From Naegleria gruberi (lineage: Eukaryota): DNA of 64,000 bases. Shown here one piece after another: positions 7,666 through 61,198 of the stretch (its first letter is position 1; every line of letters starts with the position of its first letter). The notes beneath the pieces are model-generated. The model was not told the DNA's origin, did not search any database, and was given only the letters and a program-made list of their open reading frames with translations. The translations under genes were made by a program, and so were the position numbers. Where the stretch lies: assembly GCA_000004985.1 (NCBI GenBank), contig GG738931.1. The stretch is one strand, 5' to 3'.

Positions 7666-10600
7666 CTAATGGCATGTCTTGCTATTTACTAAAAAAGTTG
7701 CTTGTTTTGCTAGATAGCTTTGGTCAAGGTTCTTGAAAGGAATTAGTGCTTTACATTCACTATCTTCTAATTTGGAAAGAGCCTGAATAACCTTATGTAC
7801 ATGGGAATTTGTGAGTCTGTCACCACTTCCTGGGAATTCATAATCTGATTTGAAGAGAGTTGCCAATCTCAATAACATTTCATTTTCCTCTTTCGTATTT
7901 CTCTCGTTCAGTATTTGCTTCCATTTCTGATAAGTTACATTTTGCATTGGCTCCTTTTTCAATAATTTAGCTTCTGTTGTTGCTGCTATGGAGAGTAAAT
8001 CGTCAATGTGAATGACGAATTTATCTAGATTTGCCAACTCGAATATGAAATAGTTTGGATTTTCGTGAAGATCTGTTACGAATGCATTCTCATTCTGTGT
8101 CAACTGTACAATGACTCTTGAAATAATATCTACTGGGACAATGTTTAGAGTTCTGTTCGTCTTTGGGAAGCAATTCATTTCAAAACATCCCATGACTAAT
8201 CTATTGACCCAATCTATTAAATTAGAAACTCCATTGACAGTATCACTTCCAATCATACCAGGTCTGAAAATGGCTCCTGGATATCCCAATAATCTTGCTT
8301 GTTGAATATATTGTTCGGCAACAAACTTGGTGCTACTGTATCCATTAGCTCTTTCAATAATTGGTTTGAGTTGCCTCATGACTTGATCCATGTGATTGTT
8401 AATTAAATCCGTAATATCTTTCTTATTGCTAATTCCAGATGTACTGGTTGGTATTCCAAAGAGTGATAATCCAGATTGCAATACTCCAACTGTAGAGACG
8501 AAAACTATTGGGGCTAAAGTGGAATCTCCACTTTGAATATTCAATTTAGATGATAAGCAAGCCAATTTCAATAATGAAAGAGTAGATCCAGTATTTGAGG
8601 AAAATAATTGAGGATATGACATGACAGAGTTGACATACGCTCCGTTGTGATAAATAATATCAATATTTTCTGCCAGTTTCTTGAATTCTTCCTCAGTGAG
8701 TCCTAAATTATCATCTCCTAAATTACCCTTGACAACTGAAATTCTCTTTTCATACTTGTCATTCCAAAGTTTGAATTCCACAAGGTTTTCTTTCACTCTC
8801 ATGAAAACGTCATCTTGATGATTCTTTTCTCTGACTATACAATAGACTTTGACATTTTCTTCAGCTTTCTCTAATGCTTCCAATAAATCTCTCAATATAA
8901 ATGCTCCTAGGAATCCTGTTGAACCTGTCAATAGAATACCCTTCTTCAAATCGGCTATCTTTTTAAATTGCGTATTTCCTCTTGATGTGAGGTCTATAAT
9001 GTCATTCAACACATCTTCAGGAAGGAGAATATCCTTCTTCCAATCATGGGATGAATTGACTGTGGCAACATCATCATGTTGGTTTTTGGTGACAAAATCT
9101 GAAACTCTACTCACTACGCTATCCACATTTCTGTCAGTTTGAGAAAATATCAGCGAGAGTGGAACATCAATGTTATACTTTTGCTTCATAATACCAGAAA
9201 ATTTAACAGCGTGAAGACTGTCAATAATTTTCATATTTCCATCAGATTCAGCTGAACCTGTTTGAGAATTTAACAATAATTCACGAATCAAATCTTCATC
9301 CAATTTCCTCTTGTTAATAGACTCTAGGTGCTCATAAAGAGCTTCCAACTCTTCCTTATACTTCATTTCGCATCCAAATCTCTTAACTTTCATTGAAGAG
9401 GTAAGGAGATCGTTCTTCTCACTAAATGACTCAAATTCAATAATAAAGTCCTTTGGCACTTCGTATGGAAGAAGAGAGCAGTTCACAGATACTTTCTCAA
9501 TTTCCTCACACAAAACCTTTTTAACCTTTTCATTGGTTTTCAGCAAGTCCTTCTCTGAATCACTCAAGAGCTCTTCACTTGATGAGTTGATGAGCCCTTC
9601 CTTGATTGCAAATTGTTTCAAAACCGTTTGATTAGGTACAATTACACCTACAAGGTAGCTTTTCGACACATTTCCATAAATGAAAGCTTGGAAGATGAAT
9701 TTTGAGGTAGTCAGAGCATCTTCAATCTTTGCAGGTGCAATAAATTCTCCTTGACTCAATTTGAAAATATTCTTGAGTCTGTCAATAATTCTAATGTGTC
9801 TTGGACCTAGCTCCTCAACAATATCATTAGTATGCAACCATCCTTCCTCATCCAAAGCGTTTTTCGTAAGTTCTTCATTCTTGTAATATCCAATGAACAT
9901 GGTTTTTGTTTTAACACAAAGTTCTCCTCTTGGATAAGGTTTGTCATTTGTGAAATAGTTCATGTCAGGTACGTCAACCAACTTGTACTCAACAGAGCTA
10001 TGAAGTCTGTTATCATTCATGATACCTCCTGCTTCTGACATTCCAAAACCATCTGAAACGAAGCAATTAAAACATTTTCCAAGAAATTCTCTAACTTGTG
10101 GGCTTGAAGAGGCTCCTCCAATAATTATTGATTGTAAGCGACCACCCAACATGTTTCTAAAATCTTTCATTACTCTTTCTTCAAGTTCTCTCTCCGTTTT
10201 AGGTCTATCCTCATTTTGATTCGAAATACCTGAAAGCCAACTTGTCTTTTCCAATTCGTACACTTTTTTATACTCATCATAGAGTACATTATAAAGTCTT
10301 GGTGTTGAGGCAATGACAGTAGGTTTGACCTTTTGAATATCCTCAAAGATGTGAACAAAATCTCTGGTAAATATTCCCACTCTAGCACCATCACACATGG
10401 CCAAAAGGGTGTGTTTTCTGTCACTCATGTGAGCAAGAGGACAGAATGAAAATTGTACTTTTGGATTTTCAGCTCTGAAACCATGCATTTCTCTTCTCAG
10501 AGATTTGTCACTAACCATTATGCCCTTCGGCTGACCTGTCGATCCACTCGTGAAAACTAACGATAGAAGATCCTCATCTTTTTCTAGTCTATTCAAAATA

Positions 10601-11640
10601 AAGTCCTGGTGTTCCACATCAATCCACATCTTATTTGGATTATACTTGTTTTTTGGAGTGACGAGGATAGTCTCGTGATTTTCAAAGTGTTTTGGATATC
10701 TTTTTTTCTTAGGTTTGTTCTTTTCGTTCAAGTATTCACATAAGATTGATTTTCCCTTGTCAATAATCTCGTTCATTGGCAGAATTTCAATTTCTTGTTT
10801 ACCACTGTTTGTTGTGAATTTACTCTTGGATTTTCCTTCATTATCATCCATTACTACAATATATTTTACAAAGTCCAATTGTTTTGTAATGCTGATGAAA
10901 AAATCGAGCATTTCTAAAGTACAAACGACAACCTGACTATCGGTCAGTTCAACAATATGTTTCGTCTCATCAAAAGTTTGGGCAAAGTGAATAGGAGCAG
11001 CCACAAATCCCTTGAAGAAACAAGCATAATCACACAAGTACCAATATAAATTATTCTTTCCACAAATGGATACAAATTGTCTCTTATTTTCCTCCCTCAA
11101 AGGTTTTAAAATTTCATCCAGTCCAACAGCAATACAACAAACCAAGTGGAATACTTGTTCATATCGAAGCCAATGATAAGGTCCGTCATCCTCTTTCAAT
11201 ATTCCAAAGCAAGGATTCATTGAATTTTCAATAAAACTCCGAAACAGTGTACTATTGACACGATCGGCCTCTGATCTTTGTTTGATTTCATGATAGTGAT
11301 ATTTTGTTGGTACAAAATATTCAAGATCCTCACAAAATGTTTCCAACCAGAGTTCTCTTTCCTTTTCTTCTGGTGTTTTTTCCTCATTGTCAACTTGTTG
11401 ATGATTAGGAGATGCATTCTTCCTTCTCTTCTTACATTTATCCCAACACCAATCGTAACACTTCTCGCACAAATCAGTTCCCTTGTCATTGGTATTGGTA
11501 TATCGGATTGTGTTTTCAATAACACCCAAACACATATTACAAATCCATCGATATGAAACCGATGTGACGGTGAAGTTGGTTGGTTTTTCCTCCACTTGCA
11601 GTTTTCCACGAGAGAATAGGGAGGTGATCTTGTTGAGCAT
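7666..11640 (-). CDS. NRPS-like carboxylic-acid-reductase-type enzyme: N-terminal ZZ-type zinc finger, ACSL-like adenylation (AMP-binding) domain, PCP/thiolation domain, C-terminal NAD(P)-binding thioester reductase domain (1324 aa, single exon)
   Basis: ZZ pattern: CNMC-x8-RY-x8-DLCEKC. Adenylation domain: core LVFTSGSTGQPKG (A3), FGMSEAG (A5), GELCVKT (A6), and the ACSL-like linker DRLKNIFKLSQGEFIAPAKIE. PCP: IDSLHAVKF Ser motif. Reductase: Rossmann LLTGSTGFLGAFIL and YSSTK catalytic dyad. Confidence 0.8.
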   Translation of the reverse strand: MLNKITSLFSRGKLQVEEKPTNFTVTSVSYRWICNMCLGVIENTIRYTNTNDKGTDLCEKCYDWCWDKCKKRRKNASPNHQQVDNEEKTPEEKERELWLETFCEDLEYFVPTKYHYHEIKQRSEADRVNSTLFRSFIENSMNPCFGILKEDDGPYHWLRYEQVFHLVCCIAVGLDEILKPLREENKRQFVSICGKNNLYWYLCDYACFFKGFVAAPIHFAQTFDETKHIVELTDSQVVVCTLEMLDFFISITKQLDFVKYIVVMDDNEGKSKSKFTTNSGKQEIEILPMNEIIDKGKSILCEYLNEKNKPKKKRYPKHFENHETILVTPKNKYNPNKMWIDVEHQDFILNRLEKDEDLLSLVFTSGSTGQPKGIMVSDKSLRREMHGFRAENPKVQFSFCPLAHMSDRKHTLLAMCDGARVGIFTRDFVHIFEDIQKVKPTVIASTPRLYNVLYDEYKKVYELEKTSWLSGISNQNEDRPKTERELEERVMKDFRNMLGGRLQSIIIGGASSSPQVREFLGKCFNCFVSDGFGMSEAGGIMNDNRLHSSVEYKLVDVPDMNYFTNDKPYPRGELCVKTKTMFIGYYKNEELTKNALDEEGWLHTNDIVEELGPRHIRIIDRLKNIFKLSQGEFIAPAKIEDALTTSKFIFQAFIYGNVSKSYLVGVIVPNQTVLKQFAIKEGLINSSSEELLSDSEKDLLKTNEKVKKVLCEEIEKVSVNCSLLPYEVPKDFIIEFESFSEKNDLLTSSMKVKRFGCEMKYKEELEALYEHLESINKRKLDEDLIRELLLNSQTGSAESDGNMKIIDSLHAVKFSGIMKQKYNIDVPLSLIFSQTDRNVDSVVSRVSDFVTKNQHDDVATVNSSHDWKKDILLPEDVLNDIIDLTSRGNTQFKKIADLKKGILLTGSTGFLGAFILRDLLEALEKAEENVKVYCIVREKNHQDDVFMRVKENLVEFKLWNDKYEKRISVVKGNLGDDNLGLTEEEFKKLAENIDIIYHNGAYVNSVMSYPQLFSSNTGSTLSLLKLACLSSKLNIQSGDSTLAPIVFVSTVGVLQSGLSLFGIPTSTSGISNKKDITDLINNHMDQVMRQLKPIIERANGYSSTKFVAEQYIQQARLLGYPGAIFRPGMIGSDTVNGVSNLIDWVNRLVMGCFEMNCFPKTNRTLNIVPVDIISRVIVQLTQNENAFVTDLHENPNYFIFELANLDKFVIHIDDLLSIAATTEAKLLKKEPMQNVTYQKWKQILNERNTKEENEMLLRLATLFKSDYEFPGSGDRLTNSHVHKVIQALSKLEDSECKALIPFKNLDQSYLAKQATFLVNSKTCH

Positions 11641-11777
11641 TTTTTTATGAAGATGAAAGTTTGTGATTGTTGATGGCTCAAGGATGAACCAGATAATGTG
11701 TTATTGTGTTAATTTTGTGATTAGTATTGCCATCATGTAATACTAATATTATTGAGTTTAAATTTGAGTTGAATAAA

Positions 11778-13283
11778 TTAAAGAATCCACATGAAGAGAA
11801 TCAAACAAGTGGAGACAACAAGTGTTGTCCAAAAGATACTCGACAATGAGTACAGATACTTCTTAAAGGTGTGATTCAATCCATATACTTCCTGAATGAA
11901 TGTGCTTACGGTTGTGAGGGAGCCACAAAATCCAACCGAGAATGCATCAATCCAATAAACAGCAACACCAGAGGTGAAACCTGAAACGTAGGCAGTACCT
12001 TGTAAAATAACCAAGATTAGAGAGCCAATGATATTGACAGCAAGTGTGAAAATTGGCATTTGGAATCTTTCAACAGCTTTAAATGTAATATTTAGCTTGC
12101 AAATTAAATATCTCAATAAACAGCCAAGAGGAGCAACGAGGAGAGTGAGGCAAAGACTTTGATCCAATGATTTTGAAACGTTCATAGCACCAAGCAGAAC
12201 AATAAAAACTGAAATGACAGCCATCAAAACTACAAACAAATCAACAGCCATTTTGATTGCTGTTCTTGATTTCCATTTGGCATTTCTAATTTGTTGATAC
12301 TCTTCCAGTAATTTTCTTTTGAATAATTCTCCATTACTCTCGGCAATATATTTAATTTCACCTTCTTCCAAGAGAATCTTTCTCTGATCCTCATTTGGAA
12401 TTGGTTCTACAATATCTACATCTTCAGCCAATCCAGAAGCAACACTCGAAGATGCAATTGAATTAACACTATTTTGACTTGTCATTGTGACCTGTTGTGG
12501 CGCCTTTGCATTTCCAAATTTCTTCCTCAAAACAGGAATCACAAAACTCAAAATTGCATTTGTAATATCCTTCGCAATTACAAATGCAAAATAACAAGTT
12601 GTAAAACCAACTACTTGCTTACTCACAAACGACAAGACATCTCCCTTCATTAAACTAATTGCAGCATTCACTTGCCAACTTGAAAATGTTGTAATGCATC
12701 CACACATCCCAGTCGATAGTCCAGTATATATCCTCTTCTCAAACGACAATGTTCCATGAAAAACTCTATGCAGAAACAACTTGACCATTCTCTTCTTTGA
12801 TTCCTCCATTCCTTCCAAAGATATTGCTGATGAATTATTACTCTTCACCATAATAGGAGTATTACTTTCACTACTACTACCATTATTATTATTATTAGTA
12901 ACCTTATTCTTTTCCAATTCAACTAACAAGGCCTTCTCCTTCTCCTTCAACTCTTCCAAAGGCTTTTTAATAAAGTGCAAATGAATGACCATTAAAACTC
13001 CCATGATGAAGCAACCCACAATATTTGCATACAAATCGGAGAAGAATAAATCATCAATGGATTGAACGATATTACCATTGGATGATGTCGATGGATTCAT
13101 AATATTGTTATTATTGCTATTATTATTGGAGGAGGAGAGGGAAGGCTTGTAGAGAGTGTCGGAGAGAAGAATTCGAATTAAAACACCAATCATGCAGAAT
13201 ACGATGAGGTAGGCAATGTAGAGTAAATGTTTGGATAAATTGATGGCAAATTTGAAATTTTCTTTGAGTAGTTGCATTGTCAT
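11778..13283 (-). CDS. FEX: fluoride export protein (eukaryotic FEX, two tandem CrcB/Fluc repeats) with a long low-complexity cytosolic loop
   Basis: CrcB signature GMCGCITTFSSW in repeat 1 and GFCGSLTTVSTF in repeat 2. Multiple TM helices. ATG at 13283. Confidence 0.7.
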   Translation of the reverse strand: MTMQLLKENFKFAINLSKHLLYIAYLIVFCMIGVLIRILLSDTLYKPSLSSSNNNSNNNNIMNPSTSSNGNIVQSIDDLFFSDLYANIVGCFIMGVLMVIHLHFIKKPLEELKEKEKALLVELEKNKVTNNNNNGSSSESNTPIMVKSNNSSAISLEGMEESKKRMVKLFLHRVFHGTLSFEKRIYTGLSTGMCGCITTFSSWQVNAAISLMKGDVLSFVSKQVVGFTTCYFAFVIAKDITNAILSFVIPVLRKKFGNAKAPQQVTMTSQNSVNSIASSSVASGLAEDVDIVEPIPNEDQRKILLEEGEIKYIAESNGELFKRKLLEEYQQIRNAKWKSRTAIKMAVDLFVVLMAVISVFIVLLGAMNVSKSLDQSLCLTLLVAPLGCLLRYLICKLNITFKAVERFQMPIFTLAVNIIGSLILVILQGTAYVSGFTSGVAVYWIDAFSVGFCGSLTTVSTFIQEVYGLNHTFKKYLYSLSSIFWTTLVVSTCLILFMWIL

Positions 13284-13546
13284 TTTTTTTAAATTTTGTG
13301 TTAATTAATTAACTTAAATATTAAATACACAATATTATTAAATATTGTAAACAGTCAAGTCATGAAATCTGCATTTATTTTTCCTTAATAAACTTTGTAA
13401 TCAAACATTAACATCTCTCTTTGCTCTTCCAAGTTCAACACGAACATCACCGAACCAAGTTCTTAATTGACCAAAAAAACAACTTTCAATACTTACTGTA
13501 TCGAGAACTTCCTCAAACACATCAAACATAACACACAAGAAAAAAA

Positions 13547-14674
13547 ATGGCTCCAAAACGCATCACACAATTCTCATCACTTCCCTACGAAATTTATCAA
13601 CACATTTTATCGTTCGGAGTGAGTGATTCCGAATTATTGCTGAAAAAGAATTTTTCGAGTGGGAGTAGTGAAATTCAATCCTGTGTACGATATGTGGCTA
13701 ATTTTCAATCATTGAATAGGAAGATTGCTAGTATGCCAGAGATGGAACGATATTTTGATAGATTTTGGTGGAATGTTTGGGAGATTTGGTTTGGAATTAA
13801 TCCATCTTTGGAGAAGGAGTTTAGTTTATTGAGGGAGGAAATGATTCTAAAGAGAGAATTGAAGAGGAAAGTGCTGATGGCTGCATTTATAAAGTTTCAC
13901 ATTTGGAGAAGAATTAAAAATTTGAATGGAATTGATGAAACTAAAGTGGTAATGATTGGAAAGGGAGGAGTAGGTAAGAATTTAATAATTTTCTGTTAAT
14001 AGGTTAATTATTTTGAAATAGGAAAGTCTGCAATGACAGTGAAATATATACAAGATTTCTTTATTGAACAATATGATCCAACAATAGAGGGTGTTTATAG
14101 AAAACAATTGTTGGTTGATGGTTTTCCTACATTATTTGAAGTTTTGGACTCGGCTGAACATGAATACAGTGTAAGTTCTTTAGAATAATGCCATTCTAAA
14201 CTAATTAAATTTATCAAGTCCGCGAGAGATCATCATATGAGATATGGAGAGTGTTTCGTTCTTGTTTGTGATTTGGCAGATATTAATTCAGTGGAAGAAG
14301 CCGAACCACTTGTAGAACAATTAGTAAGAGTTAAGGACTTTGAGGAAAATAGCTTTCCAGTAGTATTTGCCTTAAATAAGGTCGATTTACTGAATGAAAC
14401 AGATCGACCAATCACCATTGAGAAATTTACTAACCAAATTGCTACCCTCATTAAACAAACTCAATTGACCAATACTTTCATTATTGAAACAAGTGCCAAG
14501 ACGGGAGAAAACATTACTCGAGTATATGAAGAATGTGCAAGACTAAAGAGATATGGATCAGTTGATAATCTAACACTCCTGAAAGAGGTTATTCAACACG
14601 ATTCTGCATTCATTGAAACTTGTAAAAAGCAGAGAAAGTTGATGAAACAATCGAAAAATTGTTCTGTAATGTAA
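13547..14674 (+). CDS. Ras-like small GTPase with a ~130-aa N-terminal F-box-like extension and a C-terminal CAAX box (CSVM); 3 exons 13547..13973, 14022..14170, 14219..14674 (343 aa)
   Basis: Two 48-nt GTAAG...AG introns split the P-loop (GKGGVG|GKS) and follow switch II. G1, G4 (NKVD) and G5 (ETSAK) are intact. G3 is DSAE instead of DTAG. The N-terminus LPYEIYQHILSF is F-box-like. Confidence 0.7.
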
Positions 14675-14720
14675 AAATGTTGCTTAATAAAATTGTAGAT
14701 ATATATTTGTTTCGAATAAT

Positions 14721-16133
14721 TTATGAGATTTCAATCATGAATAGGTATTGCAAAGAAGAAATGGTACGCTCCTCACTTACTATTTCCCTTTCAACTAGGG
14801 TGGGATTTTGAGATTTTGTTCCAATTGACCTAATCACAAAATCATACCATTTAAACGGTTTGAAATTGGATTTCTTTTGAGATGTTTGTTTGACATTCAG
14901 CTCATTGAAAATATCAAAATCTTTTACCATTTTCACGAAAGAAAATTCTCCTTTTTGCAATCTTCTAAACATTCTTTCATCAACATGGCTCAATAAAGTA
15001 CCAATTCGATTCTTATACTCCACAACTATGGAATTTTTCTCAAAAATCTCCAATTGATTCGTATAATTAACTTGATGCCATGTTGCATCAGCAAGTCCAA
15101 ATCTTTTTGCAATTTTCAAAATATTCCAAAATATAAATTGTAAAATATTCATCTTTTTCTTTTCATTTCCAATAAGAGTTAAAACATTTGATGGAATTTG
15201 CAATTTTTCATTCATTGGAATGAAATAATTTCCAAATAATAATTCGATTCTTTCCCAATTTGGAAAATTGTTATTCTTAGGATCGAATATTGCATAATGG
15301 AATAGATCTCCTCTTTTAATCCAAGATAAATCAACTCCCAATGTTAGTGAGCAGTTCATTAAATAATTATTGGCCTTTCTAATAGAATTAATCTTTCTCT
15401 TTTTCGGATACAACAATCCACACATAGAATCATACGTATAACTAAAGCAATTATCTGTTCTCTTTACCAAAACTTGATTATTGTAAATGGAATTCAAAAC
15501 TAAATGATACGGAACTTGAATTTGAAGATTTTTCGAACAAAACAAGAGATGAATTTGTGAGATTCCAATAGATTTCAAATTTTCTGCATAATTATTCAAA
15601 GGTTCTTGTAATCTGTGCAATCCAATCAGAGACAGAGTGATGCAGTATTTCTGAGTCAATTTTGAAATTGTTAATTTTCGAATATAATTATCCGAAATTA
15701 TTTCTGCTTTAGTATTCAACTTTGCATGATTAGTTTCAATGACTAACCATTCCAAATTATCAAGATAATAAAATCTTTTCAACATTTCAATAGCAGATTT
15801 CGAATTTTCCAAATACGAATTTGTTCGAAACTTGATCCAATCCTCCTTTTCCACAAGTTTAAAGTCATCAAATTCTACCTCCTTTTTAACTAAATCAGTT
15901 CCGAAATAACCATATACTGTTGGTATTTTCGAATTACGAAACCTTTCCACTAACACTTGTTTCTGCATTCTTTCAATCTTTTCGAAACAAACCGAATTTA
16001 TTCTCTTAAATTTCCGCTGATAGAAATAGGGAAGAAATGACACAATCTCACACAATAAATCCTCATTGATTTGACGCATTTTTTTTTTATTTATTGTTAA
16101 ATTTTGATCAATTCTGAAATGCTTGAATTTCAT
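14721..16133 (-). CDS. F-box-like protein, 470 aa, single exon
   Basis: ATG at 16133. N-terminal INEDLLCEIVSFLPYFYQRKF is F-box-like. No other recognisable domain. Confidence 0.5.
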   Translation of the reverse strand: MKFKHFRIDQNLTINKKKMRQINEDLLCEIVSFLPYFYQRKFKRINSVCFEKIERMQKQVLVERFRNSKIPTVYGYFGTDLVKKEVEFDDFKLVEKEDWIKFRTNSYLENSKSAIEMLKRFYYLDNLEWLVIETNHAKLNTKAEIISDNYIRKLTISKLTQKYCITLSLIGLHRLQEPLNNYAENLKSIGISQIHLLFCSKNLQIQVPYHLVLNSIYNNQVLVKRTDNCFSYTYDSMCGLLYPKKRKINSIRKANNYLMNCSLTLGVDLSWIKRGDLFHYAIFDPKNNNFPNWERIELLFGNYFIPMNEKLQIPSNVLTLIGNEKKKMNILQFIFWNILKIAKRFGLADATWHQVNYTNQLEIFEKNSIVVEYKNRIGTLLSHVDERMFRRLQKGEFSFVKMVKDFDIFNELNVKQTSQKKSNFKPFKWYDFVIRSIGTKSQNPTLVEREIVSEERTISSLQYLFMIEIS

Positions 16134-23557: not shown

Positions 23558-23940
23558 GTTCATGATGAAAGATCTAAGGTAACATAATTATTTCCTATTT
23601 CCCTGGTAGTAAGAAGAAAGAGTAGGGGTTATCTGATGAATTTGTATATGAAAGTAGTAACAAGCTTGATATTCATTACTACTGATGTCTATCAACAAAA
23701 TTTCACATTGCTGATGATGTTTACATATCANNNNNNNNNNNNNNNNNNNNNNNNNNNNNNNNNNNNNNNNNNNNNNNNNNCTATCTGAAGTTCATGATGA
23801 AAGATCTAAGGTAACATAATTATTTCCTAGGTTATCTGATGAATTTGTATATGAAAGTAGTAACAAGCTTGATGATATTCATTACTACTGATGTCTATCA
23901 ACAAAATTTCACAATTGATGATGTTTACATATCAATTAAA
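23558..23940. repeat. direct ~170-bp duplication flanking a 50-N scaffold gap (copy 1 23558-23730 carries a 31-bp insertion; copy 2 23781-23940)
   Basis: Near-identical strings tgttcatgatgaaagatctaaggtaacataattatttcct...gatgtttacatatca occur on both sides of the N-run. Confidence 0.5.
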
Positions 23941-24749: not shown

Positions 24750-26458
24750 ATGAAAAGAAGTCTCGATGAATTTTCTGGCACACACTGCTCAGCTAAGAGT
24801 AACAAGATTCAGAAAGTATCATCAGAAAGTGTCATACAAATAGGTAATATATTCAAAACTTTTTTAATTCAAAACAAAATTCAGCCGATTTTCCTGATGA
24901 TATTTGCTATGAAATATTAGAGTATTTGAATTATAAAGATTTATTGTTGGGTGCCTTTCTTGTCTGTCGACAATGGAATCAAGTTATCAAACAACGGATC
25001 GGAGTAAAAATTGTGATTCAAGATGAGCATGTTTTAGAAGAATGGTTTCAAAGTATGGAAAATCAAGTGGAACCTAGTTATCATATCAAATCTTGGCAAA
25101 TTAAAAGACTTGTTCGTGGCACAAGATTAGACAAGGAGAAGATGGAAAGAATATGTAAAATTTTGAAGAAACAAGACAGGTTGGAGAGCCTAATTGATAA
25201 GAAAGGTTTATGTTGTCACCATACCAAATTGGTAAGCTCGCTAACTCAGTTGAAATCAATAGTCTTGAAATTCAATAATATTAACGAATACGAAATGGAG
25301 TCAATTGCCTCAATGAATAAGTTAATATCACTGGATATAGGCTGTGCTCGTACTAATCTAGAAGGGATTAAGATCCTCAGCTCTAAGGATAACTTTACAG
25401 AGCTCAATATTGAATTTTCTTTTTTTGATCAAGTTCCTTATATGGAATACGTTAGTAAGATGACCGACCTGCGAAAATTGGACATTTCTAATAATCCTAT
25501 AAGTTTAAATCGGGCTAAATCTGCTAATTATTTAAAATCACTTGAAAAACTTACCGATTTGACTGTTACGTATCTTGATATGGATCTTGAATTTTTGAAA
25601 TCTATTTCCAATTTGAAATTTCTAACAAGTCTATCTATTTATGGTAATTTGGTGGGGATTGAAGGTGTTAAAATCATATGTTCAATGTTTCAGTTGAAAA
25701 AACTAGATATAACCCTAAATGCCATTGGAGAAGAAGGTGCAAAACTAATTAGCAATTCTCTCAAACAATTAAATACCCTCCGTATTGGAGACAATCAAAT
25801 TGGAGACAAAGGAGCAGAGAGTATTAGCTCAATGAAGACGTTAACAGCCCTTGATTTAGAGGAATCAAATATTGGACCTCAAGGATTGGAATTTATTTGC
25901 CAAATGGATCAATTGAAAAGCTTAATGTTAAATTTTAATACTATAGGTGGTAGTAGGTTACCAATTAATGCGCTCACAAATTTAACTGAAATCAGTCTAG
26001 TTTTAACAAATATAGGAATAGAAATAGTGAAATCCATAAGCTTGATTACCAAGTTGAGAAATGTTAATATTAGTGACAACAGATTGGGAGATGAATGTTT
26101 AGAAATTATAGGCAATTCTCTTTTCAATTTAACAGAACTTGATATTTCTGAGAATAATATGACTGAAAACGGAACCAAATATTTGAGCTCACTAAAAAAT
26201 TTAACACATTTGAATGCCGAAGATAATAGACTTAATGATGAATCTATTCAACATTTATGTTCATTGAAGAAGTTGAAGTCTCTGTATATTAATAATAATC
26301 AAGTTGGAGACGAAGGCTTTGCACTAATTGCCAATTCCATGAAACAATTACGGTTAGTACACGCCCATAATAATAAGGAAACTGAAATTGGAAGAACACT
26401 TCTCAAGTCAAGGAAACATTTATTAACATCAGTTTGGCAAGATAATGATGGTGAGTGA
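24750..26458 (+). CDS. F-box / leucine-rich-repeat (RNI-type) protein, 2 exons 24750..24843, 24885..26458 (555 aa)
   Basis: ATG at 24750. GGTAAT donor at 24844 and TTCAG acceptor at 24884 (41-nt intron) place the F-box (DFPDDICYEILEYLNYKDLLLGAFLVCRQW) in frame. About 14 LRRs of the LxxLxLxxNxIGdeG type follow. Confidence 0.7.
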
Positions 26459-49919: not shown

Positions 49920-50750
49920 ATGCTATGGGTAGAAATGGAGGTGGACATCCCACCAAAACAACAAGCAAAAAGAACACTCAAAGCCTTCGCTAAAATAATT
50001 CAGGTAAGGTGCCAAATAAGAAGACAATTTGACACAAGGCCAAAACAAATTGTTGGAGACAATATAGTGTCAGCAGCTAGATCAACGATCCTTGTTTATG
50101 TTGAGACAAACTCTAGAACAAAACTGGAAAATTTTTTGTTGGCTACTTACCACGCCTTCAAAAGATATTCCCTGTTGTTTATTGCTGATACTCAAAACCA
50201 ACATATAAGACAATCTGTTATACAGGCTCCTAGAAACCCTCCCACTAGTGGTAACGAAGACAGCAGTGACGATACCACATCTATCAAGAGCATTTCACTA
50301 CCTGTACAAACAAATAATTCGCCCAGTAACAGTACTGATACTAAATGGGCTTTATTAGAAGCCTATTTAATTGAGTTGAAAAGAGTTCCTTCTGGCTCGG
50401 AATCAGGCAATATTTCTTCAAGTTACAACTTAAATCCAACAGAAGAAATTATTCATGATACCCATAAAAACAAACCAAAAGTTACATCACCACCAAAACC
50501 AATCAAACATTCTCCAACCCTACAAAGAGCTGTGATACATTTCAAATGGANNNNNNNNNNNNNNNNNNNNNNNNNNNNNNNNNNNNNNNNNNNNNNNNNN
50601 TTGGAGAATGTTTTGGATGCATTGATTAGATTTAATGGAGATGATGAAGCCAAGATTGGATATGCTTTTGAAAAACTAAGACTAAAAGATGACAGAACCG
50701 CAAAATCCATTACAAGATGGTTGTTTTCAACCTTATTGACTAAAGATTAG
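49920..50750 (+). CDS. hypothetical protein (about 276 aa, interrupted by a 50-N gap) located inside the Pol III island
   Basis: ATG at 49920. The ORF spans the gap in frame. A GTAAGG donor-like site at 49947 could mean an intron. No domain recognised. Confidence 0.3.
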   Translation: MLWVEMEVDIPPKQQAKRTLKAFAKIIQVRCQIRRQFDTRPKQIVGDNIVSAARSTILVYVETNSRTKLENFLLATYHAFKRYSLLFIADTQNQHIRQSVIQAPRNPPTSGNEDSSDDTTSIKSISLPVQTNNSPSNSTDTKWALLEAYLIELKRVPSGSESGNISSSYNLNPTEEIIHDTHKNKPKVTSPPKPIKHSPTLQRAVIHFKWXXXXXXXXXXXXXXXXXLENVLDALIRFNGDDEAKIGYAFEKLRLKDDRTAKSITRWLFSTLLTKD

Positions 50751-52345: not shown

Positions 52346-52536
52346 ATTTCTCTGTAATTTGTTTAATGGCTTCTCAATGAAGAAACCTAACCGGCACAGT
52401 ATTTGGCCCAATCAAATTATTATAATTCTCCAGTTAAATAATCAACATCCATTACTTTAGAACTCAGCTTGCTGTTGGGGCCCAAATTATTTTGTTTCTC
52501 AAACGAAAAAAATACCAACAAATACGAATCCACAAG

Positions 52537-53631
52537 ATGAAACTATTCGCCAAATCTTCCACACTTGATCAAGCACCACTTGAAAGACTTTGTGATGATG
52601 AATTCCATAATATTTTTGAATATACAAACATCAAGGAGGATAGAGAAGCAAATTTTAACATTTCATTGGTGAACAAACGATTAAACAAATTGGCTTCCTC
52701 CGATTTGTATTGGAAATTCATTCTTCATCATTATCCTAATCAAGAGGAAATTAAGCAACTTTCTTCTCCTTTGAAATCCAATCTAATAGAAACAAGAAAG
52801 AAGAAATTCTTGAAATTCGATACTTCACTAATTCAATATTTATCAGCGCCTCCTTTTCTTTTATTTCTTTTACTGATTGCATTCTTATTTGTCATGTCAA
52901 TAATTTTCATTCCAGTGGCATATTTCACTTTCAAAGATTTTGTCTGTTATAGAAAGTTAATTTCCAAACAAACTATTCAATTATTTAACACTTCACCATT
53001 GAATGGAACTTGTGTTTATTGTAATGTTTCTAATAATGATCATTTGAATGAGAAATTGGATATTGTTGAGTGTAATTTCACAATGAGTGGAGATCCCCTT
53101 TCATATCCATGTTGCATGAAAGAGAAGAATTGCATCTATGACAAGTATCCACTCAACATGTCTTCTTTTCGATATGAAATACAGAGCTATGGAATTCAAA
53201 AAGGTAAAACCATGTTCAATTCCACCTATTTCTATGATTGCCTCGATATGGAATGTCAACCCAGCAAATACCAAGATTATTACACATATTGCCTCTCTCA
53301 AAAAAAACCAGGTGAATTCGAAATAGATACAATATCATTACCTATCTTGTCATTCATAATGATTGGTTGTACTGTTGTCATTGTATTGATTCCATTTCTC
53401 GCTATTATTGCTCATTATTGTTTATTGCCATTTTCAAAGAGTTTGTTTTTTTGTTTGTATTGGAGAAGTTGTTTTTCAGAGGAAATTGACAAGACACATG
53501 TGAAATTGGACACAAGAAAACGAAATGGATGTTCATCTTTCTGGTTGAGTTTGTTTTTGTGGCATTTGAATATGGCAAATGTTTACATACGTATTGAAAA
53601 GGAAGAACAAACTTCAAAAGAAGAGATTTAG
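52537..53631 (+). CDS. hypothetical membrane protein with an F-box-like N-terminus, 364 aa
   Basis: The ORF-track start (52492) is TTG; the first in-frame ATG is 52537. N-terminal LERLCDDEFHNIFEY...LYWKF. Two predicted TM helices. Cys-rich lumenal segment. Confidence 0.5.
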   Translation: MKLFAKSSTLDQAPLERLCDDEFHNIFEYTNIKEDREANFNISLVNKRLNKLASSDLYWKFILHHYPNQEEIKQLSSPLKSNLIETRKKKFLKFDTSLIQYLSAPPFLLFLLLIAFLFVMSIIFIPVAYFTFKDFVCYRKLISKQTIQLFNTSPLNGTCVYCNVSNNDHLNEKLDIVECNFTMSGDPLSYPCCMKEKNCIYDKYPLNMSSFRYEIQSYGIQKGKTMFNSTYFYDCLDMECQPSKYQDYYTYCLSQKKPGEFEIDTISLPILSFIMIGCTVVIVLIPFLAIIAHYCLLPFSKSLFFCLYWRSCFSEEIDKTHVKLDTRKRNGCSSFWLSLFLWHLNMANVYIRIEKEEQTSKEEI

Positions 53632-58220: not shown

Positions 58221-59429
58221 ATGCCACTCAAGGACGGTGATCGTATTGCATTGAATATTATCAAGGCTGTTGATCTTGTTGCTGCTGATATGAACGGAAA
58301 GTCAGATCCAGTAGGTTTTAAATAAGATGATAATAGTATTGATCTAATATTATATTTATAGTATTTAATTGTTGAAACTGTTAATAAACATGGACAAGCA
58401 GAACATCATCGTANNNNNNNNNNNNNNNNNNNNNNNNNNNNNNNNNNNNNNNNNNNNNNNNNNNNNNNNNNNNNNNNNNNNNNNNNNNNNNNNNNNNNNN
58501 NNNNNNNNNNNNNNNNNNNNNNNNNNNNNNNNNNNNNNNNNNNNNNNNNNNNNNNNNNNNNNNNNNNNNNNNNNNNNNNNNNNNNNNNNNNNNNNNNNNN
58601 NNNNNNNNNNNNNNNNNNNNNNNNNNNNNNNNNNNNNNNNNNNNNNNNNNNNNNNNNNNNNNNNNNNNNNNNNNNNNNNNNNNNNNNNNNNNNNNNNNNN
58701 NNNNNNNNNNNNNNNNNNNNNNNNNNNNNNNNNNNNNNNNNNNNNNNNNNNNNNNNNNNNNNNNNNNNNNNNNNNNNNNNNNNNNNNNNNNNNNNNNNNN
58801 NNNNNNNNNNNNNNNNNNNNNNNNNNNNNNNNNNNNNNNNNNNNNNNNNNNNNNNNNNNNNNNNNNNNNNNNNNNNNNNNNNNNNNNNNNNNNNNNNNNN
58901 NNNNNNNNNNNNNNNNNNNNNNNNNNNNNNNNNNNNNNNNNNNNNNNNNNNNNNNNNNNNNNNNNNNNNNNNNNNNNNNNNNNNNNNNNNNNNNNNNNNN
59001 NNNNNNNNNNNNNNNNNNNNNNNNNNNNNNNNNNNNNNNNNNNNNNNNNNNNNNNNNNNNNNNNNNNNNNNNNNNNNNNNNNNNNNNNNNNNNNNNNNNN
59101 NNNNNNNNNNNNNNNNNNNNNNNNNNNNNNNNNNNNNNNNNNNNNNNNNNNNNNNNNNNNNNNNNNNNNNNNNNNNNNNGGTTATTCAAAATGGTGCCAA
59201 TATCACTTCTTCATTCAAGGACTCTGATACATTCCAAGAAGTATTCCACTACAATTGGAAGTTCACCAATGCTGAGAACAAGTTGATGCAAGTTTGGTCA
59301 ATTATCTGTTTGCCATCTTCCAACACTGCTGGTATGCTTAATTTTGTCTATTATGCTGAAGATTCTCATTTCACACCTGAAAAGTTGCAAGTGGTGAACT
59401 ATTGTGCTCTCAAAACAACTGTCAAATAA
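58221..59429 (+). CDS. C2-domain protein interrupted by the 766-N assembly gap (exon 1 58221..58310, exon 2 begins 58362; C-terminal coding resumes at 59180 and stops at 59429)
   Basis: MPLKDGDRIALNIIKAVDLVAADMNGKSDP|YLIVETVNKHGQAEHHR is a C2 start, split by a 51-nt GTAGGT...ATAG intron. After the gap there is in-frame coding with typical codon usage. Confidence 0.5.
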
Positions 59430-59922: not shown

Positions 59923-60948
59923 ATGGAATTTCTAAGAACTGTAGTTTCTAAAAAGAAGGTTAGATATACAGAGAATGGATTTAATTTGGATTTAACCTAC
60001 ATATCGGATCGTATTATAGCTATGGGATATCCATCAATAGGGGCTGAGAAGTTATATAGAAATCCACTTGATGAAGTGGTTCGATTCTTCTCAACCAATC
60101 ACCCAAAATCCTATAGGGTGTTCAATTTATGTGCTGAGAAACAATATGATCCAGCTGTGTTTGGTGGAGCTGTTGAACATTGGCCCTTCTGGGATCATCA
60201 ACCTCCTCCTTTTGAGATTCTAATCAAAATTTGTCAATCTTTGGATGAGTGGTTAAGTGGTGATCCTAAGAGAGTTGCTGCTATCCATTGTAAAGCTGGG
60301 AAAGGAAGAACAGGGTTAATTATTTCGTGTTATTTACTTCATTGTGGTATTTGTAAAACAGCAAGTGATGCTCTGAGTGTTTTTGGAGCATTGAGAACAG
60401 CCAACGCTAAGGGAGTTACATTACCCTCTCAAAAGTTATATGTACACTATTATGAAATGTGTTTGAAAGGTTTTCGTGGGCAAATCAATGTATTCCCAGT
60501 TAAGGATGGTGTTATTACATTGAAATCCATTGTCATTCACACAACTCCAAGATTCGATAGAGACAATGGTTGTGATCCATTCTTTTATATTCAAAATCAA
60601 ACATTTGAGGTTGCAGATGACGGAACCAAAGATTGCAAATATAATTTGGTTTATAACTCGAAGGAAGAATTGAAAATTCAACACTATATCAATCAACCAG
60701 CAATTGTTTTCAATAATTTAGAGATTGACTTGAAGGGAGATTTGAAATTTTCATTCTTTGATAAGGACATGTTGAACGATGAATTCATGTTCTCTTTTTT
60801 CATTAATACCAACTTTGTTGATTTGGAAACAGGTAAAGTTGTTATTCAAAAACCAGAAATGGAAGGAGCTTGCAAAGACCATAATCACAAAAAGTTTGAT
60901 GAGAACTTTTGCTGTGGAGTTGGGATTTTCTCTAAAGAGACCTGCTGA
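59923..60948 (+). CDS. PTEN: PTEN-type phosphatidylinositol-3,4,5-trisphosphate 3-phosphatase (phosphatase plus C2 domain), 341 aa
   Basis: Exact PTEN P-loop HCKAGKGRTG. The N-terminal TENGFNLDLTYISDRIIAMGYP and WPFWDHQPP (WPD-like) are PTEN-like. A C2-like C-terminal half. Confidence 0.85.
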   Translation: MEFLRTVVSKKKVRYTENGFNLDLTYISDRIIAMGYPSIGAEKLYRNPLDEVVRFFSTNHPKSYRVFNLCAEKQYDPAVFGGAVEHWPFWDHQPPPFEILIKICQSLDEWLSGDPKRVAAIHCKAGKGRTGLIISCYLLHCGICKTASDALSVFGALRTANAKGVTLPSQKLYVHYYEMCLKGFRGQINVFPVKDGVITLKSIVIHTTPRFDRDNGCDPFFYIQNQTFEVADDGTKDCKYNLVYNSKEELKIQHYINQPAIVFNNLEIDLKGDLKFSFFDKDMLNDEFMFSFFINTNFVDLETGKVVIQKPEMEGACKDHNHKKFDENFCCGVGIFSKETC

Positions 60949-61198
60949 AAGAAAACTAATGACAGAATCAATCAAAGCTGATGTTTCTAATTTTNNNNNN
61001 NNNNNNNNNNNNNNNNNNNNNNNNNNNNNNNNNNNNNNNNNNNNNNNNNNNNNNNNNNNNNNNNNNNNNNNNNNNNNNNNNNNNNNNNNNNNNNNNNNNN
61101 NNNNNNNNNNNNNNNNNNNNNNNNNNNNNNNNNNNNNNNNNNNNNNNNNNNNNNNNNNNNNNNNNNNNNNNNNNNNNNNNNNNNNNNNNNNNNNNNNN

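What the first reader, a model, noticed from the sequence alone, without database searches (positions are those of the whole stretch)
13547..14674. F-box-like extension fused to a Ras-like GTPase with a CAAX box and an altered switch II (DSAE instead of DTAG)
The three-exon gene encodes about 130 aa with an F-box-like motif (LPYEIYQHILSF), followed by a complete small-GTPase fold ending in CSVM (prenylation). G1, G4 and G5 are intact. The switch II DxxG glycine is replaced (DSAEHE), and the catalytic Gln position is His. This predicts slow or absent GTP hydrolysis. An F-box on a membrane-anchored GTPase would couple SCF ubiquitin-ligase recruitment to a GTPase switch, which is an unusual combination.
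Basis: partly seen in the sequence, partly recalled or inferred. Interest (0 to 1): 0.55.

Follow-up and report, generated by a model that had tools for sequence, protein, structure and literature searches.

The report
Naegleria Ras GTPase with degenerate F-box
This is an already annotated Naegleria gruberi Ras-family gene from a large amoeba-specific subfamily that carries a helical N-terminal extension with a weak F-box signature; this copy has also lost the switch II glycine and the catalytic glutamine, so it probably cannot switch off normally. It is a modest addition to known F-box/GTPase fusions in Naegleria, not a new kind of protein.

Summary
The three-exon model (13547-13973, 14022-14170, 14219-14674) gives a 343-aa protein identical to N. 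gruberi NEG-M XP_002669123.1, annotated "ras family small GTPase".

Residues 133-300 are a Ras domain (Pfam E=8e-27). G1, switch I Thr, G4 and G5 are intact. A polybasic stretch and a CSVM box close the protein. G3 reads DSAEHE. DNA comparison with a sister copy shows GGA>GAA (G60E), CCT>CAT (P61H) and loss of one Glu codon.

The 132-aa extension lies in the same exon as the P-loop. It is conserved in about 20-30 N. gruberi and Willaertia magna Ras paralogues.

The F-box call is only partly supported:
- This protein has no Pfam F-box hit.
- 12 of 24 relatives give sub-threshold F-box-clan hits, none above Pfam's cut-off.
- Profile-profile comparison gives 94% probability, almost all from helix 1 (LPxEIxxHIL).
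- Fold searches find no F-box.

F-box/GTPase fusions are already reported as common in Naegleria (Rab-like, Rho, Ran, Galpha; Herman et al. 2021) and in Euglenozoa (TbFRP). That paper lists this gene as plain Ras.

Verdict: a new member of a known kind, probably hydrolysis-deficient. SCF coupling is untested. Interest is modest.

The parts
13547..13973 (+). Exon 1: start codon, the whole N-terminal extension (aa 1-132), beta-1 and the first part of the P-loop (aa 133-143)
   Evidence: One ORF, 13547-13999. The spliced product is identical to XP_002669123.1.
13580..13615 (+). F-box helix-1-like motif LPYEIYQHILSF (aa 12-23)
   Evidence: P13, E15, I16 and I20 are the invariant or near-invariant columns of the extension across 16 diverse members. 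hhalign against an F-box alignment: Prob 94%, P=9e-8, score 40.8; column-shuffle null mean 8.4, maximum 15.2. No Pfam hit for this protein itself.
13547..13942 (+). Conserved all-helical N-terminal extension (aa 1-132), including the family motifs NFQSLN, FWW and KRK
   Evidence: Exhaustive profile search finds 16 family representatives in N. gruberi, Willaertia magna and metagenomes. AlphaFold2 with 19 sequences: mean pLDDT 79.7, eight helices. No significant structural neighbour.
13974..14021 (+). Intron 1 (48 nt, GTAAG..AG), splitting the P-loop
   Evidence: In-frame stop if retained. Position conserved in L001.
14022..14170 (+). Exon 2: end of the P-loop, switch I (YDPTIEGVY, 14072-14098) and G3/switch II start (DSAEHE, 14147-14164)
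   Evidence: This is the most diverged exon against the sister copy L001: 17.4% against about 5% in exons 1 and 3.
14147..14164 (+). Altered G3 motif DSAEHE (Ras numbering D57 S58 A59 E60 H61 E63, residue 62 deleted)
   Evidence: DNA alignment with L001: GGA>GAA, CCT>CAT, GAA deleted. HMMER alignment to KRas chain 3gft.
14171..14218 (+). Intron 2 (48 nt, GTAAGT..AG)
   Evidence: 31% diverged from L001, including a 7-nt indel.
14219..14674 (+). Exon 3: rest of switch II, G4 NKVD (14375-14386), G5 SAK (14492-14500), family-specific C-terminal helix, polybasic stretch KKQRKLMKQSK (14624-14656), CaaX CSVM (14660-14671), stop
   Evidence: The C-terminal segment DNLTLLKEVIQHDSAFIE is conserved in paralogues.

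Best explanation
This is XP_002669123.1 of Naegleria gruberi NEG-M. It is one recent copy in a large heterolobosean-specific subfamily of Ras-derived GTPases.

Subfamily architecture:
- a ~125-aa all-helical N-terminal extension that opens with a degenerate F-box (helix 1, LPxEIxxHIL, retained);
- a Ras G-domain with a Ras-like effector loop;
- a family-specific C-terminal helix;
- a polybasic stretch and a farnesylation-type CaaX box.

Shown here: the architecture, the fusion within one exon, conservation of the extension, and the motif states.

Inferred from RAS biochemistry: this copy still binds nucleotide, because G1, Thr35, G4 and G5 are intact. Because of G60E, H61 and the one-residue deletion in switch II, it hydrolyses GTP very slowly, is insensitive to GAPs, and probably cannot make the normal switch II transition. 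It would therefore act as a constitutive membrane-bound adaptor, not a cycling switch.

Inferred, weaker: the N-terminal module descends from an F-box, like the F-boxes fused to many other Naegleria GTPases. If it still binds Skp1, the protein would bring an SCF ligase, or Skp1 alone, to the membrane. The Ras effector surface would then select partners, or the protein would drive its own turnover.
For: - Identity and model.
- Ras domain and motifs.
- Fusion in one ORF.
- Family: N. gruberi paralogues P0002, P0123, P0139, P0140, P0142, P0137, and W. magna P0013, P0124, P0126, P0134, P0135 share the extension. Some 20 or more further 'Ras' entries with the same N-terminus appear in Herman et al. 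Table S8.
- F-box descent: PF12937/PF00646/F-box_4/F-box-like_2/PRANC sub-threshold hits in 12 of 24 members, best E=3.9e-5. hhalign Prob 94-95%. The Willaertia clade aligns over 42 F-box columns, and the Naegleria clade aligns to the Willaertia clade over 86 columns. The only non-family hits among 1.84 billion representatives are plant F-box proteins P0131 and P0133. The most conserved columns of the extension are the F-box helix-1 residues.
- Precedent in the same genus.
- Hydrolysis defect: published effects of KRAS Q61H and NRAS G60E.
- Not simple decay: the DSAEHE core is kept as an intact ORF in two copies that differ at 17 other residues.
Against: - This protein has no Pfam F-box hit at any threshold, and none of 24 members reaches Pfam's gathering score. 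Two Naegleria Rab-like F-box proteins used as positive controls do reach it, at 31-33 bits.
- The profile-profile signal in the Naegleria clade is confined to about 21 columns, helix 1.
- A 15-20 residue insertion separates helix 1 from the presumed helix 2, and the F-box Trp is not conserved.
- A family profile finds no F-box chain in the PDB by sequence beyond TIR1 at E=1.8.
- dN/dS against the sister copy is high: 0.62 overall and 0.79 over aa 147-210. This is compatible with relaxed constraint.
- No expression, nucleotide-binding or Skp1-binding data exist.
Confidence: 0.6

Rival explanations
1. The N-terminal extension is a lineage-specific helical domain that is not an F-box and does not bind Skp1. 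The LPxEIxxHIL helix would be either convergent or a relic. The domain would act as an intramolecular regulator, a dimerisation module or a built-in effector-like partner of the Ras domain.
For: - No Pfam F-box hit for this protein, and none of 24 members above the gathering score.
- Similarity is limited to helix 1 in the Naegleria clade.
- Other family-specific conserved positions (F73 of FWW, K106 of KRK) lie outside any F-box.
- Herman et al. searched these proteins with SMART, Pfam and CDD and listed them as plain Ras.
Against: - The conserved core of the extension is exactly the F-box signature.
- Sub-threshold hits converge on one Pfam clan in half the members.
- The less diverged Willaertia members align through F-box helix 2, with VNKQF corresponding to VCKRW.
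- The profile recovers real F-box proteins and nothing else outside the family.
- Even a genuine F-box finds others in the PDB only at E=0.07-1, so weak scores are expected for this domain.
Confidence: 0.3
2. This copy is a decaying duplicate in a birth-and-death gene family. The switch II lesions mark loss of function, and the gene is on its way to becoming a pseudogene.
For: - There are several near-identical copies. A sister type keeps the canonical DTAG.
- Changes cluster in the functional switch regions, with dN/dS about 0.8 there.
- The effector-loop Asp38 is Gly only in this copy.
- Other family members have degenerate P-loops or G5 motifs, for example P0137 (DTIE, SVK) and P0126 (GRS).
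- Herman et al. describe birth-and-death evolution with disrupted members in the related Rab-like clades.
Against: - The ORF, both splice sites, G1, G2 Thr, G4, G5, the polybasic stretch and the CaaX box are all intact.
- The same DSAEHE core is retained in a second intact copy (XP_002669149.1) that has 17 independent differences.
- dN/dS outside the switch patch is 0.33 over aa 211-343.
- The same two substitutions in human RAS give gain of GTP-bound state, not loss of folding.
Confidence: 0.15
3. The N-terminal region and the GTPase are separate products, through a separate transcript or an internal start, so there is no fusion protein.
For: Internal Met codons exist (M63, M66, M99, M111, M136). 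One RefSeq model of the sister copy (XP_002669149.1, 281 aa) starts at the equivalent of M63.
Against: - The extension and the P-loop share one uninterrupted ORF and exon.
- The extension is conserved at the protein level, in the same position, in more than 20 paralogues and in another genus.
- A start at M136 would remove beta-1.
- Herman et al. treated the short models as mis-predictions and extended them.
Confidence: 0.03

Closest known systems
Naegleria F-box/GTPase fusion proteins (Rab-like, Rho, Ran, Galpha) described by Herman et al. 2021, BMC Biol 19:142, Additional file 4 and Table S8
   Same: Same genus. Same layout: an N-terminal extension that starts with an LPxE(I/L) helix, a helical linker, then a Ras-superfamily G-domain. 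One Rab-like subgroup also ends in CaaX. The families are expanded and fast-evolving, and the authors propose GTPase-dependent ubiquitination.
   Different: Their F-boxes are recognised by Pfam: controls score 31-33 bits, above the gathering score. This Ras subgroup's are not, and the paper lists XP_002669123.1 and its relatives as plain 'Ras' with no extra domain. The G-domain here is true-Ras-like, not Rab-like. hhalign between the two kinds of N-terminal extension is weak (Prob 12-75%).
TbFRP (Tb927.7.3790), the FYVE / F-box / Rab-like GTPase of Euglenozoa (PMC3593210)
   Same: An F-box placed N-terminal to a small GTPase domain in a discoban protist. The F-box was proposed to link the GTPase to ubiquitination and rapid turnover.
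   Different: TbFRP has a FYVE domain for PI3P targeting, no CaaX box, and a Rab18/Ypt6-like G-domain. Its authors found no Naegleria orthologue. No FYVE hit here. Membrane targeting here would be by farnesyl plus a polybasic stretch.
RhoBTB (Cul3 adaptor) and Rab40 (SOCS box, Cul5 adaptor): small GTPases fused to a cullin-adaptor module (from my own knowledge; RhoBTB in Naegleria is noted)
   Same: An atypical small GTPase joined in one chain to a module that docks a cullin-RING ligase. Rab40 is also prenylated. RhoBTB G-domains are also atypical in their catalytic residues.
   Different: Different adaptor module (BTB or SOCS box against an F-box-like helix), different cullin, and different GTPase family. 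Adaptor function is demonstrated experimentally for those proteins and is untested here.
Human RAS mutants G60E and Q61H (oncogenic or RASopathy alleles)
   Same: The same residues at the same positions of a 38%-identical G-domain. The mutants accumulate in the GTP-bound form and resist GAPs.
   Different: Here the changes are fixed in a wild-type gene, combined with each other and with a one-residue deletion in switch II and further switch II substitutions. The immediate ancestor already had Pro, not Gln, at position 61.
Prenylated F-box proteins such as yeast Rcy1 and human FBXL2 (from my own knowledge)
   Same: An F-box protein anchored to membranes by a C-terminal CaaX box. Rcy1 works with Skp1 outside a canonical SCF complex and in a GTPase (Ypt) pathway.
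   Different: Those proteins have no GTPase domain of their own.

Membership tests
Ras family small GTPase (Pfam PF00071; Ras sensu stricto) | Match to the Ras family HMM above the curated cut-off | tested here: met
   94.2 bits against a cut-off of 21.6, E=8.2e-27, aa 133-300. Best solved relatives are KRas, HRas and Rap2A, E about 1e-30.
Ras family small GTPase (Pfam PF00071; Ras sensu stricto) | G1 P-loop GxxxxGK[ST]; G2 Thr in switch I; G4 NKxD; G5 SAK | tested here: met
   GKGGVGKS, YDPTIEGVY, NKVD, SAK.
Ras family small GTPase (Pfam PF00071; Ras sensu stricto) | G3 DxxG with the glycine that contacts the gamma-phosphate | tested here: not met
   DSAE. GGA>GAA relative to the sister copy.
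Ras family small GTPase (Pfam PF00071; Ras sensu stricto) | Catalytic Gln at position 61 | tested here: not met
   His (or Glu under the alternative gap placement). Sister copies have Pro, the paralogue P0002 has Ile, and the Willaertia members mostly keep Gln.
Ras family small GTPase (Pfam PF00071; Ras sensu stricto) | C-terminal CaaX prenylation box | tested here: met
   CSVM directly before the stop, preceded by KKQRKLMKQSK. Actual prenylation was not tested.
Ras family small GTPase (Pfam PF00071; Ras sensu stricto) | Guanine-nucleotide binding and GTP hydrolysis | not testable with these tools
   Needs recombinant protein.
F-box domain (Pfam clan CL0271: PF00646, PF12937 and relatives) | Match to an F-box HMM above the curated cut-off | tested here: not met
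   No hit for this protein at E<=10. 0 of 24 family members reach the cut-off. 12 of 24 give sub-threshold hits of 12-22 bits, best E=3.9e-5. Naegleria Rab-like controls pass at 31-33 bits.
F-box domain (Pfam clan CL0271: PF00646, PF12937 and relatives) | Helix-1 signature LPxE(I/L/V)xxxI(L/F) | tested here: met
   LPYEIYQHIL. P13, E15, I16 and I20 are the most conserved columns. hhalign Prob 94%, P=9e-8, against a shuffle maximum of 15.2.
F-box domain (Pfam clan CL0271: PF00646, PF12937 and relatives) | Helices 2 and 3 (VCKxW ... LW) following helix 1 | tested here: inconclusive
   The Willaertia clade aligns over 42 F-box columns, including VNKQF against VCKRW. The Naegleria clade aligns only by transitivity (LNRKI), after a 15-20 residue insertion.
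F-box domain (Pfam clan CL0271: PF00646, PF12937 and relatives) | Three-helix F-box fold resembling solved F-box proteins | tested here: inconclusive
F-box domain (Pfam clan CL0271: PF00646, PF12937 and relatives) | Binding to Skp1 | not testable with these tools
   Needs a pull-down or a multimer prediction. No multimer tool was available.
TbFRP family (FYVE / F-box / Rab-like GTPase, Euglenozoa) | N-terminal FYVE domain and a Rab18/Ypt6-like G-domain | tested here: not met
   No FYVE hit. The G-domain is closest to KRas, HRas and Rap. The TbFRP authors found no Naegleria orthologue.
Heterolobosean 'N-extension Ras' subfamily (defined here) | Conserved N-terminal extension (LPxEI ... NFQSLN ... 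FWW ... KRK), Ras domain, C-terminal DNLxLLK helix and CaaX | tested here: met
   The N-terminal profile finds 16 representatives at E from 4e-61 to 2e-4 in N. gruberi, W. magna and metagenomes. Alignments. More members in Table S8.

The most novel reading that the evidence does not exclude
The whole heterolobosean 'N-extension Ras' subfamily could be a set of genuine SCF (Skp1/Cul1) substrate receptors. In these, a farnesylated Ras domain would replace the usual WD40 or LRR module. In this copy the Ras domain is locked in a GTP-like state by G60E and H61. It would select proteins containing RBD or RA domains for ubiquitination at the plasma membrane. That would make a Cul1 counterpart to RhoBTB (Cul3) and Rab40 (Cul5). 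The canonical-switch (DTAGP) and locked (DSAEH) copies, which recombine with each other, would then give regulated and constitutive versions of the same receptor.
Probability: 0.2. Interest if true: 0.6.

Novelty: new member of a known kind. Interest (0 to 1): 0.33.

Why it matters
If the F-box reading holds, the F-box/GTPase theme in Naegleria extends to the Ras family proper. The published survey did not recognise this, and it would add some 20 or more genes to the set of candidate GTPase-coupled ubiquitin-ligase adaptors.

The naturally fixed G60E/H61 pair shows how a protist has turned a Ras switch into a probable constitutive form using the same substitutions that are pathogenic in humans. 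A canonical-glycine sister copy sits alongside it as a built-in comparison.

Practically, it shows that threshold-based domain annotation misses this module. It also flags two RefSeq mis-models in the family: XP_002669149.1 is N-terminally truncated, and XP_002677816.1 has a wrong C-terminus.

The gene itself is already annotated and the architecture has precedents, so the advance is incremental.

Tried and rejected
- Pfam on the N-terminus alone and on the full protein: no F-box.
- Family N-terminal profiles against PDB sequences: no F-box chain. The best hits were chance (Atg32 at E=0.85; TIR1 at E=1.8 for helix 1 only).
- Word-indexed search with the N-terminal profile returned only the L001 ORF. 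The exhaustive search was needed.
- AlphaFold2 with 4 sequences was too poor, pLDDT 55. It was repeated with 19 sequences.
I could therefore not model how the extension packs on the G-domain.
- Genomic DNA for P0001 and P0002 was not on record, so dN/dS could be computed only against L001.
- I first read L001 as an orthologue from another species. I rejected this once Table S8 showed an almost identical 'unassembled reads' copy in NEG-M itself and the four-combination mosaic appeared. L001 is better read as another copy or haplotype of the same small gene cluster.
- Positive selection as the explanation for the switch-region divergence is not favoured. dS and intron 2 divergence are also raised there, which points to exchange between diverged copies.
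- hhalign against the N-termini of Naegleria Rab-like F-box proteins was weak, so there is no evidence that the whole module was shuffled from those genes.
- Literature search for the accession numbers found nothing.
Full report
**1. What is at 13547-14674**

The window is AT-rich eukaryotic DNA (33% GC).
- Joining 13547-13973, 14022-14170 and 14219-14674 removes two 48-nt GTAAG...AG introns (17% and 23% GC against 35% in the CDS). The result is a 1032-nt reading frame for 343 aa ending CSVM-stop.
- The product is identical, residue for residue, to P0144 = XP_002669123.1 / D2W3G2_NAEGR, 'ras family small GTPase' of Naegleria gruberi strain NEG-M, on a 138,333-nt scaffold.
- If either intron is retained, translation stops inside it.
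- Intron 1 cuts the P-loop between GKGGVG and KS. Splicing restores GKGGVGKS.
- The first 142 codons hold both the LPYEIYQHILSF motif and the start of the GTPase domain, and they form one uninterrupted ORF (13547-13999). The fusion of extension and GTPase does not rest on any splice prediction.

**2. The GTPase part**

- Pfam Ras (PF00071) matches aa 133-300 at E=8.2e-27, 94 bits against a cut-off of 21.6.
- The closest solved structures are KRas, HRas and Rap2A at E about 1e-30. The top entry (3gft) has His at the position aligned with this protein's His189.
- G1 (GKGGVGKS), the switch I threonine in a Ras-like effector loop (YDPTIEGVY), G4 (NKVD) and G5 (SAK) are intact.
- The tail has a polybasic run (KKQRKLMKQSK) and CSVM. 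By established CaaX rules (X = Met) that is a farnesyltransferase-type box, as in K-Ras4B. This is my own knowledge; prenylation was not tested.
- G3 reads DSAEHE, not DTAGQEE.
- A sister copy (see section 5) makes the changes readable at DNA level. GGA>GAA turns the DxxG glycine into Glu. CCT>CAT turns a Pro at position 61 into His. One GAA (Glu62) is deleted.
- Because of the deletion, a plain pairwise alignment can instead delete Gly60 and put Glu at 61. Under either alignment the glycine and the catalytic glutamine are both absent.
- In human RAS, Q61H lowers intrinsic hydrolysis 40-80 fold and GAP-stimulated hydrolysis by 97-99%. NRAS G60E raises RAS-GTP levels and is transforming (review PMC6813200).
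It remains an inference, and the extra deletion and neighbouring substitutions (S65-A66-M67 > S-S-A, Q70H, Y71H, T74Y) could also disturb the switch II conformational change itself.

**3. The N-terminal extension is a conserved family module**

- The full-length search found an N. gruberi paralogue with the whole extension (P0002, 55% identity over 97% of the query) and a Willaertia magna protein with the same layout (P0013).
- An exhaustive HMMER search of 1.84 billion representatives with an N-terminal profile gave 18 hits at E<=1e-3.
- Sixteen of these are family members from N. gruberi, W. magna and metagenomes, mostly continuing into a P-loop.
- Table S8 of Herman et al. 2021 contains roughly 20 further N. 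gruberi 'Ras' entries with the same N-terminus, many ending in CaaX.
- The family shares LPxEIxxHILSF, NFQSLN, FWW, a KRK-containing helix, and a helix after the G-domain (DNLTLLKEVIQHDSAFIE).
- With 19 sequences AlphaFold2 gives a confident all-helical model: mean pLDDT 79.7, pTM 0.75, eight helices.

**4. Is it an F-box?**

Against:
- This protein gives no Pfam F-box hit at E<=10.
- None of 24 family N-termini reaches Pfam's cut-off. Two Naegleria Rab-like F-box proteins used as positive controls do, at 31-33 bits.
- Family profiles find no F-box chain in the PDB by sequence.

For:
- 12 of 24 members give sub-threshold hits, and they converge on one Pfam clan: F-box-like, F-box, F-box_4, F-box-like_2 and PRANC, best E=3.9e-5.
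- The only two non-family hits of the exhaustive search are bona fide plant multi-F-box proteins. One aligns over profile positions 9-55.
- The invariant or near-invariant columns of the 130-aa extension are P13, E15, I16 and I20, which is the F-box helix-1 signature.
- hhalign of the family against an F-box alignment gives Prob 94%, P=9e-8, score 40.8. One hundred column-shuffled controls give mean 8.4 and maximum 15.2.
- The Willaertia clade aligns over 42 F-box columns, through VNKQF against VCKRW. The Naegleria clade aligns to the Willaertia clade over 86 columns at Prob 87%. Against F-boxes directly, the Naegleria clade aligns only through helix 1.

Calibration: a genuine plant F-box finds Fbw7 in the PDB only at E=0.07. 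Weak sequence scores are normal for this domain.

My reading is that the module most likely descends from an F-box (about 0.65-0.7). In the N. gruberi lineage it has an insertion after helix 1 and has lost the Trp. Whether it still binds Skp1 is open (about 0.3-0.4).

**5. Copies, mosaics and the origin of DSAEHE**

- A 3,071-nt metagenome contig (L001) is 94.6% identical to window 11620-14701 and has the same neighbour, CrcB.
- Its copy has DTAGPEEYSAMRDQYMRSG, as does a copy that Herman et al. rebuilt from unassembled NEG-M reads.
- A second scaffold copy, XP_002669149.1 (P0001, mis-modelled from Met63), shares DSAEHE with the window gene.
- Divergence between window and L001 is 1.9% in CrcB and about 5% in exons 1 and 3. 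It rises to 17% in exon 2, 31% in intron 2 and 13.5% at the start of exon 3.
- Both dN (0.19) and dS (0.24) are raised there.
- Across the four copies, the linker type (RRIKNLNG or RTPKKLDG) and the G-domain type (DSAEH-type or DTAGP-type) occur in all four combinations.
- That four-gamete pattern indicates recombination or gene conversion among copies. Two diverged versions of the G-domain are each kept intact in two copies.
- This argues against simple decay of the DSAEHE form, although relaxed constraint cannot be excluded (overall dN/dS 0.62).
- Gln61 was lost earlier. Naegleria paralogues have Pro or Ile, while most Willaertia members keep Gln.
- Other members show further degeneration. 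P0137 has DTIE and SVK, and P0126 has GRS in the P-loop.

**6. What is already known**

- Herman et al. 2021 (BMC Biol 19:142, Additional file 4) re-annotated more than 350 N. gruberi Ras-superfamily genes.
- They state that the F-box is the most frequent additional domain, combined with Rab, Rho, Ran and Galpha domains.
- They report that three Rab-like subgroups have an N-terminal extension identifiable in some members as an F-box, one subgroup with CaaX.
- They suggest this points to GTPase-dependent ubiquitination.
- The Ras family is not in that list. XP_002669123.1 and its relatives appear as 'Ras' with an empty domain column.
- In Euglenozoa, TbFRP is a FYVE / F-box / Rab-like GTPase. 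Its authors found no Naegleria orthologue.
- From my own knowledge, RhoBTB (Cul3) and Rab40 (SOCS box, Cul5) are established small GTPases fused to cullin-adaptor modules. Rcy1 and FBXL2 are prenylated F-box proteins.
- 'F-box on a membrane-anchored GTPase' is therefore a known theme, especially in this genus. What is new here is its probable, cryptic presence in the Ras family proper, and the fixed G60E/H61 switch II.

**7. Most likely mechanism**

Shown: the architecture, the conservation and the motif states.

Inferred from RAS biochemistry: a farnesylated, polybasic-anchored protein that binds guanine nucleotide but hydrolyses poorly and ignores GAPs. It would act as a constitutive, not a cycling, membrane adaptor with a largely Ras-like effector loop. 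D38 is Gly in this copy only.

Inferred with lower confidence: the N-terminal module recruits Skp1 or SCF. That would serve either to ubiquitinate partners held by the Ras surface or to control the protein's own stability. The main rival is a non-F-box regulatory helical domain.

**8. Verdict**

- This is a new member of a known kind.
- Interest is about 0.33.
- The decisive tests are Skp1 binding or a multimer prediction, and nucleotide binding and hydrolysis assays comparing the DSAEH and DTAGP copies.

Noticed in passing
window 13547-14674 compared with L001:1916-3036, P0001 and the 'unassembled reads' copy in Herman et al. Table S8: Four near-identical copies show all four combinations of linker type (aa 121-127, RRIKNLNG or RTPKKLDG) and G-domain type (aa 147-294, DSAEH-type or DTAGP-type). 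This is a four-gamete pattern indicating recombination or gene conversion. Divergence from L001 peaks in exon 2, intron 2 and the start of exon 3, with raised dS as well as dN.
   Followed up: partly
window 14721-16133 (-): A convergent 470-aa ORF lies immediately downstream. Its N-terminus (INEDLLCEIVSFLPYFYQRKFKRINSVCFEKI) looks F-box-like by eye, but it has no Pfam hit at E<=10.
   Followed up: partly
window ~24860-26458 (+): An F-box/LRR-type gene. A canonical-looking F-box (FPDDICYEILEYLNYKDLLLGAFLVCRQWNQVI) sits just upstream of the listed ORF start, followed by strong LRR_6/LRR_4/LRR_8 hits. It would make a useful in-window positive control for Skp1 binding. The F-box itself was not scanned against Pfam.
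   Followed up: partly
window 52492-53631 (+): A 379-aa ORF with a sub-threshold Pfam F-box hit: PF00646, E=0.0037, 17.6 bits against a cut-off of 20.5, covering profile positions 1-42 of 43. It is another weakly scoring Naegleria F-box.
   Followed up: no
window 11778-13283 (-) and L001:141-1649: The divergent upstream neighbour is a 501-aa two-repeat CrcB (fluoride exporter type) protein with poly-Asn and poly-Ser runs. It is only 1.9% diverged from L001, much less than the Ras gene next to it.
   Followed up: no
window 7666-11640 (-); 59923-60948 (+): A 1324-aa AMP-binding plus NAD_binding_4 protein (carboxylate-reductase-like layout) and a PTEN-like phosphatase with a PTEN C2 domain.
   Followed up: no
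window 23731-23780, 50551-50600, 58414-59179, 60995-61198: Runs of N (assembly gaps). ORFs listed across 58365-59286 are artefacts of the gap.
   Followed up: yes
P0001 (XP_002669149.1) and P0139 (XP_002677816.1), N. gruberi RefSeq models outside the window: Two family members are mis-modelled in RefSeq. XP_002669149.1 starts at the equivalent of Met63 and so lacks the LPxEI motif. XP_002677816.1 has a wrong C-terminus, which Herman et al. Table S8 corrects.
   Followed up: partly
family members P0137, P0126, P0130 (N. gruberi, W. magna and metagenome): Several paralogues have degenerate nucleotide-binding motifs (DTIE and SVK; GPNSVGRS; GCRKSGKT). This suggests repeated drift towards pseudoGTPases within the subfamily.
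   Followed up: no
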